A stretch of DNA of 64,000 bases from the human T2T-CHM13v2.0 reference genome, Homo sapiens. Below are positions 55,678 through 61,600 of the stretch, one piece after another; the stretch's first letter is position 1; each line of letters opens with the position of its first letter. The notes under the pieces were generated by a model, which did no database searches, was not told where the DNA came from, and worked only from the letters and a program-made list of their open reading frames with translations. The stretch is taken from NCBI RefSeq assembly GCF_009914755.1, contig NC_060934.1; one strand, given 5' to 3'. A program made the translations under genes and the position numbers.

Positions 55678-58600
55678 CATGTATTTACCCTCTTAACAAT
55701 TATTAAGTATACATCACAGTGTTACAATATTGTTCATTATTTTATACAACAGATCTCTAGAACTTTTTTTTTGTTCTCTGCAGTTACAAGCTTTTAAAAA
55801 TTTTATTTTTAGGCCAGGCGCAGTGGCTCATGCCTGTAATCCCAGCACTTTGGAAGGCTGAGGCAGGTGGATCACCTGAGGTTGGGAGTTTGAGACCAGG
55901 CTGACCAACATGGAGAAACCCCGTCTCTACTAAAAATACAAAATTAGCCAGGCATGGTGGTGCATGCATGTAATCTCATCTACCGGGGATGCTGAGGCAG
56001 GAGAATTGCTTGAACCCAGGAGGCAGAGGTTGCAGTGAGTCAAGATGGTGCCATTGCACTCCAGCCTGGGTAACAAGAGCGAAACTCAAAAAAAAAAAAA
56101 AATTAAATTGACAAATGTACGTATTTAGGGGGTACATAATGTTGACATAAATGTACATATTTATGGGGTATGTAGTGATGTTTTGATACATATAATGCAT
56201 GACAGGCTTGTCCAACTCATGGCTCATGGGCTACATGTGGCCCAGGATAGCTTCGAATACAGACCAACACAAATTCCTAAACTTTCTTAAAACATGAGAT
56301 TTTTTTTGCAATTTTTTTTTTTGGTAGCTCATCAGCTATCATTAGTGGATTTTCTTGTTGTTGTTTTATTTAATTTTTTTATTTAAAAAATACATAATTT
56401 TTAATAGAAATGGGGTCTCACCATGTTGTCCAGGCCATTCCCAAACTCCTGAGCTCAAGCAGTCTGCTTGCCTTGGCCTCCCAAAGTGCTGGATTACAGA
56501 TGTGAGCCACCGTGCCTGCCCTGCCGCTAGTGTATTTTATGTGTGGTCCAAGACAATTTTTCTTCTTCCATCGTGGCCCAGGGAAGCCAAAAGATTGGAT
56601 ACCCCTACTGTACAGTGATCAGATCAGGATAATTAGCATATCCATCATCTTAAACATTTATAATTTATTTTTGTTCGGAACGTTTGATATTCTCCTTCTA
56701 GCTATTTGAAACTGTATATTATTGTTCACTATAGCCTTCCTACCGTAGGATAAAGGATAAAGTACTAGAATTTATTCCTCCTGTCTTGCTGTAATTTTGT
56801 ATCCTTTAACAAATTTCTCCCTGTCCCTCCCTTTCCTCTACCCTTCCTATCCTCTGTTCTGTGTTTTACTTATAAGTTTTTTAGTTTCCACATGAGTGAG
56901 AACATGTGGTGATTAACTTTCTGTTCCTGGCTTATTTCATTTAATATAATGTCTTCCAGTTCCATCCATATTGCTGTGAATGAGTGGATTTTATTTATGT
57001 ATTTTCTTTTTTTTTTTTTTTTTTTAAGTAGAGATGGGGTTTCACCATGTTGGCCAGTCTGATCTTGAACTCCTGACTTCAAGTGATCCATTCCTCTCAG
57101 CCTGCCAAAGGGCTGGGATTACAGGCATCAGTCACCATACTCAGCCCAGATTTTATTTTTTATGACTGAGGAGTATTCCACTGTGTATGTATACCATATT
57201 TTCTTTATCCATTCATCTGTTATTAGATGTCCAGTTTGTCTAACCCATATCTAGGCTGTTTGAATAGCAGTAAACATGGGGATGCAGATGTGCCTTCAAC
57301 AGAATGATTTCCTTTCCTCTGGATAAATTCCTAGTAGTGGAATGCTGGATCATATGGTAATTCTGTTTGTAGTTATTTGAGGAAACTCTGTACTGTTCTG
57401 TCTTGTGGCTGTACTAGTTTGTATTCCCACCAATAAAGTGTAAGTGTTCCCTTTTCTCCTGTCCTTGTCAGCACTTGTTACTTTTTAAATTGAATTGTTT
57501 ATCTTTTTCCCCGTTTGCCCATTTGCCCATTTTTAATTGGATTGTTTATCTTTTTCCTGTTGAGATGTTTGAGTTACTTGTATATTCTGGATATTGGCCA
57601 TTCTTTTTGATAATAGCCGTTTTAACTGGGGTTAGAGTTGTGGTTTTGATTTGCATTTCCCTGATGATTAGTGCTGTTGAGCTTTATTTATTTATTTAGA
57701 CAGAATCTTGCTCTGTTGCCCAGGCTGGAATGCTGTGGCCTGATCACTGTCCACTCTAAGCTCAACCTCCTGGGCTTAGGCAATCCTCCTACCTCAACTT
57801 CCTGAGTAGCTGGGACTACAGATGTGTGCCAATGGGCCCAGCTAATTTTTAAGAGTTTTTTGGAGAGATTGGGTCTCGCTATGTTGCCCAGGCTTGTCTC
57901 AAATTCCTGGCCTTCAGCGATCTTTCAGCATCAGCCTCCCAAAGTGCTGGGACTACAGGTGTGAGCCACCATGCTCTGCCCTCCTTTGTTTTTGTTTTGT
58001 GAAAGAGACAGGATCTCCTTGTCACCCAGGCCAGAATGCAGTAGTGCGATCATAACTCATTATAACCTTGAACTCCTGGCCTCAAGGTATCCTCCCACCT
58101 TGGCCTCCCGAACGCTGGGATTACAGGCATGAGCCCCTGGTAATAGCACCTGGCCTATTTCATTTGTTTTTTGGCCATTTTTCTTCTTTTGAGAAATGTG
58201 TCTGTTCAGATCATTTGCCCATTTTTTAATTGGATTTGTTTTGCTGTTGAGATGTTTGAGTTACTTGTATATTCTGTATATTAATCCCCTGTTGGATGAG
58301 TAGTTTGCAAATATTTTCTCACTTTCTGTAGCTCGTCTCTTCATGATGTTAATGGGTTCTTTTGCTGTGCAGTAGCTTTTTAGTTTAATATAATCCCATT
58401 TGTTTATTTTTGCTTTTGATGCCTGTGTTTTTGAGGTTTTACCCATAAAATATTTTCCCAGACCAGTGTCCTAAAATGTTTCCCCTATGTTTTCTTACAG
58501 TGGTTTTTATCATTTCAAATCTTTTTTTTTTGAGACGGAGTCTTGCTCTGTCGCTCAGGCTGGAGTGCAGTGGCACGATCTCGGCTCACTGCAACCTCCG

Positions 58601-61600
58601 CCTCCCAGGTTCAAGCAATTCTCCTGCCTCAGCCTCCCGAGTAGCTGGGATTACAGGCGTGCACCACCACGCCCGGCTAATTTTTGTATTTTTAGTGGAG
58701 ACGGGGTTTCACCATGTTGGTCAGGCTGGTCTCGAGTTCCTGACCTCATGATCCTCCTGCCTCCGCCTCCCAAAGTGCTGGGATTACAGGCGTGAGCGTG
58801 AGCCACCACGCCTGGCTAAGGATTTATAATAGATTTAAAGCATTCTGATGGGCAAAGAACCAGGGAAAGGAAAGTCAAAGGCAGTACTGTCCAATATGAC
58901 ATGTAATTTTAAACTTTCTAGTTGCCACATTAAAAGAGTAAAAAGAATCGTGTGAAATCAGTTTTGTTTTTCAATTGAGACAAGGTCTCACCACGTTGCC
59001 CAGGCTGGTCTCAAGCTACTTGGGCTCAAGCAATCCTCCCACAGTGCTGGGATTACAGGTGTGAGCCACTGTGCCTGGCCAAAATCAGTTTTAATATATT
59101 TCTTTAATCTAATATATCCCTAACAGTATCACCATGTTGGTCAAGCTGGTCTCGAACTCTTGACCTGGTGATCCGCCCGCCTTGGCCTCGCAAAGTACTG
59201 GGATTACAGGCGTGAGACACCATGCCCGGCTCTCATTTCGAATCTTACACTTAGGTCTTTGATTTCTTTTGAGTTGATTTTTGTATAGGGTGAGTGTTGG
59301 GCGTCTGCTTTTATTCTTCTGCATATGGATATCCATTTTTCCCAGCACCATTTATTGAAGAGACTGTCTTTTTCCCAATGAGTGTTTTTGGCACTTTTGT
59401 GAGAAATCCGCTGGCTGTAGATAGGTAGATTAATTTCTGGGTTCTCTGTTTTGTTCCATTAGTGTATGTATCTGTTTTTAATGCTGCACCATGCTGTTTT
59501 GGTTACTACAGCCTTGTAGTATATTTTCAGGTGTTGTATTGTGATACCTCCAACTTTTTGCTCAGGGTTGCTTTGGTTATTCGGGGGCTTTTGTGGTTCT
59601 GTACAAATTTTAGGATTTGTTTTTCCGTGAAGAATGTCATTGGTATTTTGATAGGGATTGCATTGGATCTGTAGATTGCTTTGTGTAGTATTTCTGGCAC
59701 TTTCTCATCTTGCCTGACTGAAACTCTGTACTTTAGAGCAACTCCCTATTTCCCTCTCCCTTCAGCTCCTGGCAACCACCAGTCTACCATTTTACTTTCT
59801 GTCTCTATGAGTTTGATTATTTAAGATACCTCATGTAAGTGGAATTATGCAGTACTTGTTGTTTTATGATTGGCGTATTTCACTTAGCATAAAGTCCCCA
59901 TGGTTCATCCATTTTGTAGCATATGACAGGATTTCTTTTTTTTTTTTTTTTTTTTTTTGAGATGGAGTCTCACTCTGTCACCCAGGCAGGCTGGAGTGCA
60001 GTGGCGCGATCTGGGCTCACTGCAACCCCCGCCTCCCAGGTTCAAGTGATTCTTCTGCCTCAGCCTCCTAAGTAGCTGGGATTACAGGCATGAGCCACCA
60101 CGCCTAATTTTTGTATTTTTGGTAGAGACGGGGTTCACTACGTTGGTCAGCCTGGTCTTGAACTCCTGACCTCAGGTGATCCTCCCGCCTCGGCCTCCCA
60201 AAGTGCTGGGATTACAGGTGTGAGCCATCATGCCAGGTCCAGGATTTCTTTAGGGCTGAATAATATCCAGTTGTGTATATGTACCACATTTGTTGATCCA
60301 TTTATCTGTTGAGAGACACAAGTTAATTACACGTTTTGGCTATTGTAGTGAATAGTGCTGCAGTGGACAAGAGTATGTAAATATCTCTTCGAGATCCTGT
60401 TTTCAATTTTTTTAGATATATACTGAGAAGTGGGATTTCTGGATCATCTGGTATTCCATTTTAAATTTTTTGAGGAACGTCCATACTGTTTTTCATAGTG
60501 ATTGTACTGTTTTATAGTCCCACCAACAATGCACAGGAGTTCTAATTCCTCCACATCCTTGCCAACACTTGGTTTTCTGTTTTTTTGTTTTTTGTTTTTT
60601 TTTGATAGAGGTAATTTTAACTGGTGTGAGGTGATACCTCAGTGTGATTTGATGTGAGTTTTGCCGATGATTAGTGATGTTGAGTAGCTTTTCATATTTT
60701 TTTTGGCCATTTATGTATCTTCTTTGTAAAAATGTCTATTCAAGTCCTTAGCTCATTTTAAAGTTGTGTTATTTGTGGTTTTTGTTTTGTTACTGAGTTG
60801 TAGGAGTTTTTTTTTTATTCTGGATATTAAACCCCTATCCAATACATGATTTGCAAATATTTTCTCTCATTCTGTAGGTTGCCTTTTCACTCTTCCTTGG
60901 TTTCATTCTGGTTTTGGTTGATTGCTTGCCTTGCTGCACAGAAGTTTGTAAGTTTGATGTAATTCTGTGTCTATTTTTGCCTTTGTTGCCTGTGCTTTTT
61001 GTTTTGCAGCCAAGAAATCATTGCCAAATTCAGTATCATGAAGCTTCTCTATGTTTCCTTCTAGTTTTATGGTTTCAGGTCTTATGTTTAGGTCTTTAAT
61101 CAATTTTTAGTTATTTTTTATTTATGGTTTAAGATAAGGATCCATCTTCATTCTGTTGCATGTGGACATCCAGTTTTTCCAGCACTATTTGTTGAAGAGA
61201 TTATTCTTTCCCCATTGCGTAGTCTTGGCTCATCATTTGACCACATACACAGGGGTTTATATCTGGGCTGTCTGTTCTGTTCCATTGGTTTACATGTCTG
61301 TATGCTAGTACTATTTTGATCACTGTAGCTTTGTAACAAGTTTTGAAATCAGAAAGTGTGAAGCCTACAGTTTTGTTCTTAATCAAGGTTGTTTTGGCTA
61401 TTTGGGGTCCTTTGAGATTACTTACTGATTTCAGGATGGCTTTTTCTCATTTTGCAAAAAATGACACTGAAATTTGGTAGAGATTGCATTGAATCAGTAG
61501 ATTACTTTGGATAGTATGTACATTTTAACAATATAAGGTCTTCCAGTCCTTGAACATGAGATGTCTTTCCCATTTGTGTGTTTAATTTTTTCCTCAGTTT

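What the first reader, a model, noticed from the sequence alone, without database searches (positions are those of the whole stretch)
58510..59246. Alu-primed templated insertion: ~450 bp copied in inverted orientation from 15.5 kb away
Seen: 58818-59131 is the reverse complement of 42959-43273 (unique DNA, part of MER33 and an oddly deleted Alu monomer). The adjoining Alu left arm shares non-consensus variants with the Alu at 43274 (GAGGATCA, CAGGAACTCGAG, TCTCCACTAAAA), whereas the right arm does not. After the copy, the host Alu's own left arm resumes at a TCA microhomology (59129-59131). One TSD (tcatttc[a/g]aatctt, 58510-58523 and 59233-59246) encloses everything. Inference: a break in the host Alu invaded the oppositely oriented Alu at 43.3 kb, synthesised through it into the flank, then returned by microhomology. 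This leaves a locus-specific inverted repeat in BMPR1A intron 1 that could pair in the pre-mRNA or seed inversions and deletions in a juvenile-polyposis gene.
Basis: partly seen in the sequence, partly recalled or inferred. Interest (0 to 1): 0.72.

Follow-up and report, generated by a model that had tools for sequence, protein, structure and literature searches.

The report
Repair-copied DNA patch inside an Alu
About 600 bases of BMPR1A intron 1 (an Alu and the 315 bases in front of it) were copied backwards into an older Alu 15.5 kb downstream, most likely while a DNA break was being mended 10-25 million years ago; scars of this kind are known and common, and this one has no evident effect.

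Summary
58522-59131 is the reverse complement of 42959-43561 (612 columns, 39 mismatches, 11 gap columns). The 314-base non-Alu part has only these two full-length copies in the 3.1 Gb genome. One 14-base target-site duplication encloses the composite, and paralogous L1-type copies show the undisturbed site. The donor is the 43 kb copy: other copies of the old repeat there run straight across the breakpoint 42959.

A DNA-templated repair copy is the best reading, joined by homology in the Alu on one side and by a 3-base microhomology on the other. The claim that the right arm belongs to the resident Alu is not supported. Away from CpG sites it differs from the donor at 4 of 118 sites, like the unique DNA (10 of 313); unrelated Alu pairs differ at a median of 13. 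The copy is therefore probably about 600 bases, not 450. The surviving resident left arm is much older than the event, which argues against a single-step L1 template-switch chimera.

This belongs to the known class of repair-mediated duplications (PMC2671141). The suggested disease and RNA consequences are untested.

The parts
58510..58523 (.). left copy of the 14-base target-site duplication (TCATTTCAAATCTT)
   Evidence: present once in paralogous L1-type copies
58524..58531 (-). A-tail of the composite (8 T on the + strand beyond the TSD)
58532..58679 (-). Alu right arm of the acceptor; most likely also copied from the donor (43406-43552), not resident
   Evidence: non-CpG differences from the donor 4 of 118, against a background pair median of 13 and only 4 of 903 pairs as close; 90.5% raw identity, 9 of 14 mismatches CpG-type
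58680..58817 (-). Alu left arm copied from the donor (43274-43405); carries a 6-base tandem duplication at 58792-58803 that the donor lacks
   Evidence: 96.6% to the donor against 91.5% for the next best window Alu; rare shared variants at positions 57, 75, 76 and 115; at most 1 non-CpG difference in positions 12 to 115/135 (0 of 110, 1 of 93)
58818..59131 (-). copy of the donor's 5' flank 42959-43273 (old repeat, free left Alu monomer with its TSD, old repeat)
   Evidence: 94% identity; only two full-length copies in the genome
59129..59131 (.). 3-base microhomology (TCA on +; TGA in Alu sense) at the junction of copied flank and resident Alu
59132..59232 (-). remnant of the resident, older AluS: Alu positions 1 to about 103, abutting the TSD
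   Evidence: best window match only 89.9%; 7 of 82 to 9 of 85 non-CpG changes from the consensus; its variant combination is unique in the genome
59233..59246 (.). right copy of the TSD (TCATTTCGAATCTT)
42959..43273 (+). donor flank: part of an old TIR-bearing interspersed repeat (about 42802-43205) with a free left Alu monomer (43003-43124) inserted between 11-base TSDs (42998-43008, 43125-43135)
43274..43575 (+). donor AluS (body 43274-43551, A-tail 43552-43575), sense to BMPR1A

Best explanation
Two steps. (1) Shown: an AluS inserted by ordinary L1-driven retrotransposition, in minus orientation, into an L1-type repeat. It has a 14-base TSD, an A-tail, and a nick site reading TCTT/AC. (2) Inferred: much later this resident Alu was broken near its position 103. 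The break was mended by copying DNA from the oppositely oriented AluS 15.5 kb upstream on the same chromosome. The copied tract runs from 42959 through the 315-base unique flank and through most or all of the donor Alu, about 600 bases. One junction lies inside Alu or A-tail homology and is invisible. The other is a 3-base microhomology (TGA) with the surviving resident left arm. This is synthesis-dependent repair begun or ended by homology and closed at the other side by microhomology-mediated joining; a replication-fork template switch would leave the same product. The order of synthesis is open. Either the right-arm end invaded the donor Alu and overshot into the flank, or the left-arm end primed at the microhomology, copied the flank and then the donor Alu, and was captured by Alu homology at the second end. 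The second order explains without extra assumptions why both left arms are kept. Confidence: 0.6 for the whole statement, and about 0.8-0.85 that it is DNA-templated repair whatever the extent of the tract.
For: There are two copies only, and the donor is ancestral: other genomic copies of the old repeat align across 42959, and the acceptor copy starts there. The composite lies within one TSD, and 6 of 7 paralogous L1-type copies show the two flanks contiguous with the TSD sequence present once (in L011 and L012 the alignments overlap by exactly 14 bases, the other four project to within 1-2 bases). Donor and acceptor are 15.5 kb apart, whereas a random landing within that distance has a chance of about 1e-5. 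The resident left-arm remnant has 7 of 82 to 9 of 85 non-CpG changes where about 1.3 would be expected had it arrived with the copy (Poisson p 4e-4 to 1e-5; 0.011 to 5e-4 if two changes were inherited). The host element is therefore older than the patch. Non-CpG divergence from the donor is uniform along the copy: 4.5%, 3.3% and 2.7% in the flank parts, 3.8% in the left arm and 3.4% in the right arm. In the right arm, 0 of 43 background Alus are as close to the donor as the acceptor is, and 4 of 903 background pairs are as close. The kind is known. Pace et al. 2009 list 1,136 transposable elements interrupted by a sequence found at one other place, with signs of SDSA; 824 have the donor within 5 kb, and those are up to 619 bp long (PMC2671141; abstract, passages and section 7). 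Homologous repair ended by microhomology joining has been shown in mammalian cells (PMC5104497; abstract and passages).
Against: No orthologue with an uninterrupted resident Alu could be examined, so the two-step order rests on divergence counts from short stretches. The right arm has no rare variant shared with the donor while the left arm has four, and these variants are not a subfamily trait (3 genome hits). This is weak evidence (about p 0.06, my estimate) that the tract stops at the linker. The direct test that remnant and right arm differ in age is only p 0.03 to 0.10. The donor is 15.5 kb away, beyond the 5 kb within which Pace et al. class such events with confidence. An A-tail and a TSD sit at the end of the copied Alu, exactly as a retrocopy would have them. 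If synthesis ran Alu-first, the nascent strand carried a left arm that could have annealed to the second end, yet the repair did not end there. Later gene conversion from other Alus could also have 'cleaned' the right arm.
Confidence: 0.6

Rival explanations
1. The repair tract is about 450 bases and stops at the A-rich linker of the Alu, and the right arm 58532-58679 and the A-tail are those of the resident Alu, whose broken end invaded the donor Alu.
For: All four rare shared variants lie in the left arm and none in the right. In raw identity the donor is only the joint second to fourth best window match of the acceptor right arm (89.1%; best 91.2%). The donor right arm has 10 CpG-position changes against 5 in the acceptor. 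Invasion by a 170-base homologous end is the textbook start of such repair.
Against: At non-CpG sites the right arms differ at 4 of 118, as the unique DNA does. Only 4 of 903 background pairs are that close, and no background Alu is as close to the donor. The acceptor right arm is among the cleanest (3 of 119) and the remnant among the most diverged (9 of 85) of 44 elements, which is unexpected for one element (Fisher p 0.03 to 0.10). The excess raw mismatches are CpG-type (9 of 14), as expected if the CpGs were intact when copied.
Confidence: 0.2
2. A single L1-driven event. Reverse transcription primed on the A-tail of the donor Alu within a BMPR1A pre-mRNA (the donor Alu is sense to the gene), ran through the Alu and 315 bases of intron, then jumped by microhomology onto an Alu RNA at position 103 and finished at its 5' end. 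The result would be a template-switch chimeric retrocopy.
For: One TSD, an A-tail, an L1-type nick site (TCTT/AC; the consensus is recalled), all parts in one orientation, and a 5' part ending at Alu nucleotide 1. The whole donor Alu appears to be copied. Chimeric insertions by template switching are documented (PMC13174262; abstract and passages).
Against: The donor is 15.5 kb from the insertion in a 3.1 Gb genome (chance about 1e-5), and in Pace et al. none of the 39 proximal duplications examined had a poly-A tract. The 5' Alu part is far more diverged than a sequence made at the event should be, and no Alu with its variant combination exists in the genome (1 exact hit, itself; the single one-mismatch hit aligns over only 50 bases). 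The template would be an unspliced intron fragment. The differences between donor and acceptor show no excess of A-to-G changes of the kind RNA editing would leave (my reading).
Confidence: 0.1
3. Nothing was copied directionally: chance similarity, an assembly artefact, or the 58.8 kb copy as the original.
For: None found.
Against: 94% identity over 314 unique bases with exactly two copies. The acceptor copy begins in the middle of an old repeat that is continuous at the donor, and it sits inside a TSD-bounded insertion within an L1-type repeat. The divergence of about 5% excludes a recent assembly duplication.
Confidence: 0.02

Closest known systems
[quoted passage not shown]
   Same: A transposable element is interrupted by a copy of sequence found at one other place on the same chromosome. 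A microhomology of 2-9 bases sits at a junction. The size is within their range (maximum 619 bp for proximal events). Alus are frequent acceptors ('Alu' occurs 179 times in their Table S1). Their rate peaks at 30-42 Myr ago and continues afterwards.
   Different: The donor is 15.5 kb away (824 of their 1,136 are within 5 kb; only 58 are on the same chromosome beyond 5 kb). One junction lies in a homologous Alu, so the insert itself contains a near full-length Alu. Their screen required both TE pieces to be under 95% of the consensus length, so it may have missed this locus. BMPR1A does not occur in Table S1 (0 occurrences), and no chr10 row starts with 8851-8854 (my hg18 coordinates are recalled).
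[quoted passage not shown] 2016, PMC5104497)
   Same: A homologous start, synthesis beyond the shared homology, and rejoining to the second end through microhomology.
   Different: That is an experimental sister-chromatid reporter in mouse ES cells. Here the donor is an ectopic, inverted, roughly 88%-similar Alu in the germ line. In the Alu-first order a homologous annealing site was available and was passed over.
Alu-Alu non-allelic (partial) gene conversion (PMC8230782 and the work it cites)
   Same: Part of one Alu is overwritten by a neighbouring Alu. That paper reports 98 cases, 69 of them partial, and quotes a range of about 10 kb for neighbouring Alus (passages).
   Different: Gene conversion stays within the homology. 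Here 315 bases of non-homologous flank came along and the acceptor grew by about 400 bases.
L1 template-switch chimeric insertions (Law and Burns 2026, PMC13174262)
   Same: One TSD and A-tail around two joined sequences in the same orientation.
   Different: The parts here differ in age and the donor is adjacent, neither of which that mechanism predicts.
Alu-mediated replicative template switching (FoSTeS/MMBIR) at inverted repeats (seen only in the listing, e.g. PMC11293582, PMC4352052; mechanism recalled)
   Same: A switch to a nearby inverted homologous repeat and a return by microhomology.
   Different: Those events are large copy-number gains in patients. This is a 0.6 kb fixed insertion with no other rearrangement.

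Membership tests
Repair-mediated duplication (Pace et al. 2009) | a transposable element split by an inserted sequence | tested here: met
   Alu remnant 59132-59232 and Alu 3' part plus A-tail within one TSD
Repair-mediated duplication (Pace et al. 2009) | the inserted sequence occurs at exactly one other place in the genome | tested here: met
   two full-length matches
Repair-mediated duplication (Pace et al. 2009) | donor within 5 kb, the group they class with confidence | tested here: not met
   15.5 kb
Repair-mediated duplication (Pace et al. 2009) | microhomology, filler or deletion at the junctions, and no poly-A or TSD belonging to the insert | tested here: inconclusive
   3-base microhomology at one junction; an A-tail and TSD are present but can be assigned to the resident Alu
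Repair-mediated duplication (Pace et al. 2009) | an uninterrupted element at the orthologous site of an outgroup species | not testable with these tools
   no primate genomes on hand
L1 template-switch chimeric retrocopy | one TSD, an A-tail and an endonuclease-type nick site around the whole | tested here: met
   (nick-site consensus recalled)
L1 template-switch chimeric retrocopy | all parts arrived at the same time (equal age) | tested here: not met
   remnant 7-9 non-CpG changes against about 1.3 expected
L1 template-switch chimeric retrocopy | the source RNA is unlinked to the landing site | tested here: not met
   donor 15.5 kb away; chance about 1e-5
Alu-Alu gene conversion | the exchange is confined to the homologous Alu sequence | tested here: not met
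   315 bases of non-Alu-dimer flank were copied

The most novel reading that the evidence does not exclude
The composite was made in one step by L1 reverse transcriptase using the nascent BMPR1A pre-mRNA, still tethered to the locus, as template at a nick 15.5 kb downstream, and then jumping to an Alu RNA. That would be retrotransposition in cis from a nascent transcript, which would explain the proximity without DNA repair.
Probability: 0.07. Interest if true: 0.6.

Novelty: new member of a known kind. Interest (0 to 1): 0.27.

Why it matters
It is a clean, datable fossil of ectopic break repair between inverted Alus that dragged 315 bases of unique DNA along. Events anchored in a repeat on one side may be missed by screens that look for a split element with a non-repeat insert, so the known catalogue may undercount them. 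Locally it adds a 0.6 kb, 93%-matched inverted repeat to BMPR1A intron 1. Half of that repeat is not Alu, so RNA editing in the non-Alu part would give a simple test of long-range pairing. Nothing found here links it to disease. No exon lies between the arms, and closer inverted Alu partners exist: 41877-42157 lies 1.1 kb from the donor.

Tried and rejected
I looked for a second nearby donor for the resident remnant, which would have indicated a multi-jump event. No window Alu is closer than 89.9%. The remnant's variant combination is unique in the genome, and the one near match on contig 15 aligns over only 50 bases (the alignment had picked a different Alu of that locus). I tested whether the left-arm variants mark a small Alu lineage. 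There are only 3 genome hits even with CpG positions left free, and the third (contig 5) lacks the variants at positions 91 and 115 and differs in the right arm. I therefore treat it as coincidence or a lone sibling. Raw identity, CpG-position distance (11 of 27; 23rd percentile of background pairs) and subfamily-level variants could not place the 3' end of the copied tract. An RNA-editing signature in the copy was looked for by eye and not seen. Literature on BMPR1A rearrangements gave only general statements: listing of 12 of 18 papers; passages of one review.
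Full report
WHAT IS THERE. Reading the two places and aligning them shows that 58522-59131 is the reverse complement of 42959-43561: 612 columns, 39 mismatches, 11 gap columns. The repeat finder finds the same relation as four collinear inverted blocks of 91-97%. The stretch has three parts. The first is 315 bases that are not Alu dimer (42959-43273). 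The second is a complete AluS (43274-43551). The third is the start of its A-tail.

The 315 bases are the inner part of an old interspersed repeat with 12-base terminal inverted repeats (42802-43205), into which a free left Alu monomer inserted between 11-base TSDs. Both copies of the monomer share a 13-base internal deletion.

A whole-genome search with 58818-59131 gives two full-length matches only, the query itself and the 43 kb locus at 94%. All other matches cover only the monomer (40 of 2159 candidates were scored).

DIRECTION AND SETTING. Other genomic copies of the old repeat align straight across position 42959, whereas the acceptor matches only from there on. The 58.8 kb copy is therefore a truncated, secondary copy.

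In Alu sense the composite 58524-59232 reads: Alu positions 1 to about 103 (59232-59132), the copied flank, the complete Alu, then 8 A. It is bounded by TCATTTC[A/G]AATCTT on both sides.

The surrounding DNA is a very abundant L1-type repeat (3265 candidates; the family name is recalled). In 6 of 7 paralogous copies the two flanks are contiguous with the 14 bases present once (the seventh, L016, has the right flank some 330 bases off). The nick site reads TCTT/AC. Everything between the TSDs is thus an insertion made, at least at first, by L1-type retrotransposition.

HOW MUCH WAS COPIED. The left arm is plainly the donor's. It is 96.6% identical to the donor against 91.5% for the next window Alu. 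It has at most one non-CpG difference from the donor over positions 12 to 115/135 (0 of 110, 1 of 93). It shares with the donor variants seen in 0 of 27 background Alus, and these variants are not a lineage trait (3 genome hits).

That raw figure is misleading, because 9 of the 14 mismatches are CpG-type. Away from CpG positions the right arms differ at 4 of 118 sites (3.4%), the same as the flank (10 of 313, 3.2%; Fisher p = 1.0). Among 43 background Alus (27 from the window, 16 from other loci fetched here; elements under 81% identity or not full-length were left out):
- the median pair differs at 13 sites;
- only 4 of 903 pairs are as close as 4;
- none is as close to the donor as the acceptor is, and 2 are as close to the acceptor as the donor is (with 27 Alus, 2 of 351 pairs).

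The acceptor right arm is also among the cleanest (3 of 119 from the consensus; 4 of 43 as clean). The resident remnant is among the most diverged (9 of 85; 1 of 43 as diverged). That is unexpected for two halves of one element, though the direct test is modest (p 0.03 to 0.10).

Three points weigh the other way:
- four rare shared variants in the left arm against none in the right (about p 0.06, my estimate);
- an unexplained excess of CpG changes in the donor right arm (10 against 5);
- possible later gene conversion.

I put about 0.7-0.75 on the tract covering most or all of the Alu, about 600 bases rather than 450.

ONE STEP OR TWO. The anatomy (TSD, A-tail, one orientation, 5' part starting at Alu nucleotide 1) is also what an L1 template-switch chimera looks like, with a BMPR1A pre-mRNA as first template; the donor Alu is sense to the gene. 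Two results speak against it.

First, the remnant carries 7 of 82 to 9 of 85 non-CpG changes, where 1.3 are expected for a sequence made at the event (p 4e-4 to 1e-5; 0.011 to 5e-4 if two were inherited). No Alu with that variant set exists elsewhere.

Second, the donor is 15.5 kb away, with a chance near 1e-5 for an unlinked landing. In Pace et al. none of the 39 proximal duplications examined had a poly-A tract, whereas 17 of the 29 interchromosomal ones did.

An old resident Alu patched later by DNA copying explains both.

MECHANISM. Shown: an insertion within one TSD; an inverted, truncated, unique copy from 15.5 kb away; a 3-base microhomology at one junction; the other junction hidden in Alu or A-tail homology; a remnant older than the patch.

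Inferred: a break (or stalled fork) in the resident Alu near position 103, copying from the inverted Alu locus, and rejoining. It matches experimentally shown non-canonical termination of homologous repair (PMC5104497; abstract and passages). However, it must pass over an available annealing site in the left arm.

The reverse order is priming at TGA, copying the flank and then the Alu, and capture by Alu homology at the second end. It keeps both left arms without further assumption. The product cannot tell the two orders apart.

COMPARISON AND NOVELTY. This is a member of the repair-mediated duplications of Pace et al. 2009 (1,136 events, with signs of SDSA; 824 have the donor within 5 kb and are up to 619 bp). 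It is unusual in its 15.5 kb distance and in being anchored in a homologous Alu. It is not in their table (my hg18 coordinates are recalled). It goes beyond Alu-Alu gene conversion because non-homologous flank was carried along (PMC8230782; passages).

Age from K = 0.053 is 12-26 Myr for recalled rates of 2.2e-9 to 1.0e-9 per site per year.

CONSEQUENCES. Both arms lie on the BMPR1A pre-mRNA and could pair, but closer inverted Alu partners exist and no exon lies between the arms (annotation given with the finding). I found nothing in the papers seen that ties BMPR1A rearrangements to this spot. The clinical suggestion is speculation.

VERDICT. This is a known kind of event, of modest interest.

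Noticed in passing
window 42802-43205: Old interspersed repeat with 12-base terminal inverted repeats (42802-42813 / 43194-43205). It hosts a free left Alu monomer (43003-43124) between perfect 11-base TSDs (AAAACTGATTT), and the monomer has a 13-base internal deletion between repeated GGGAGG-like motifs.
   Followed up: partly
window 58792-58803: A 6-base tandem duplication (GTGAGC twice on the + strand) near the 5' end of the copied Alu that is absent from the donor. The first 11 bases of the Alu also hold a cluster of differences between donor and acceptor (positions 1, 7, 8, 10, 11).
   Followed up: no
L018 (G000 contig 5, 146052834-146052867): An unrelated Alu is the only other genome hit sharing three rare left-arm variants (positions 57, 75, 76) with the donor Alu. 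It lacks the variants at 91 and 115. This is coincidence or a lone sibling.
   Followed up: partly
window 43406-43552 versus 58532-58679: The donor right arm has twice as many CpG-position changes as the acceptor right arm (10 against 5), plus a 2-base deletion, while the left arms are balanced. This asymmetry is unexplained.
   Followed up: no
window 58300-58523 and 59247-59400: The insertion target is a + strand L1-type repeat (thousands of genomic relatives at 80-85%). The nick site reads TCTT/AC, and the single TSD mismatch is a CpG decay (TTCGAA to TTCAAA).
   Followed up: partly
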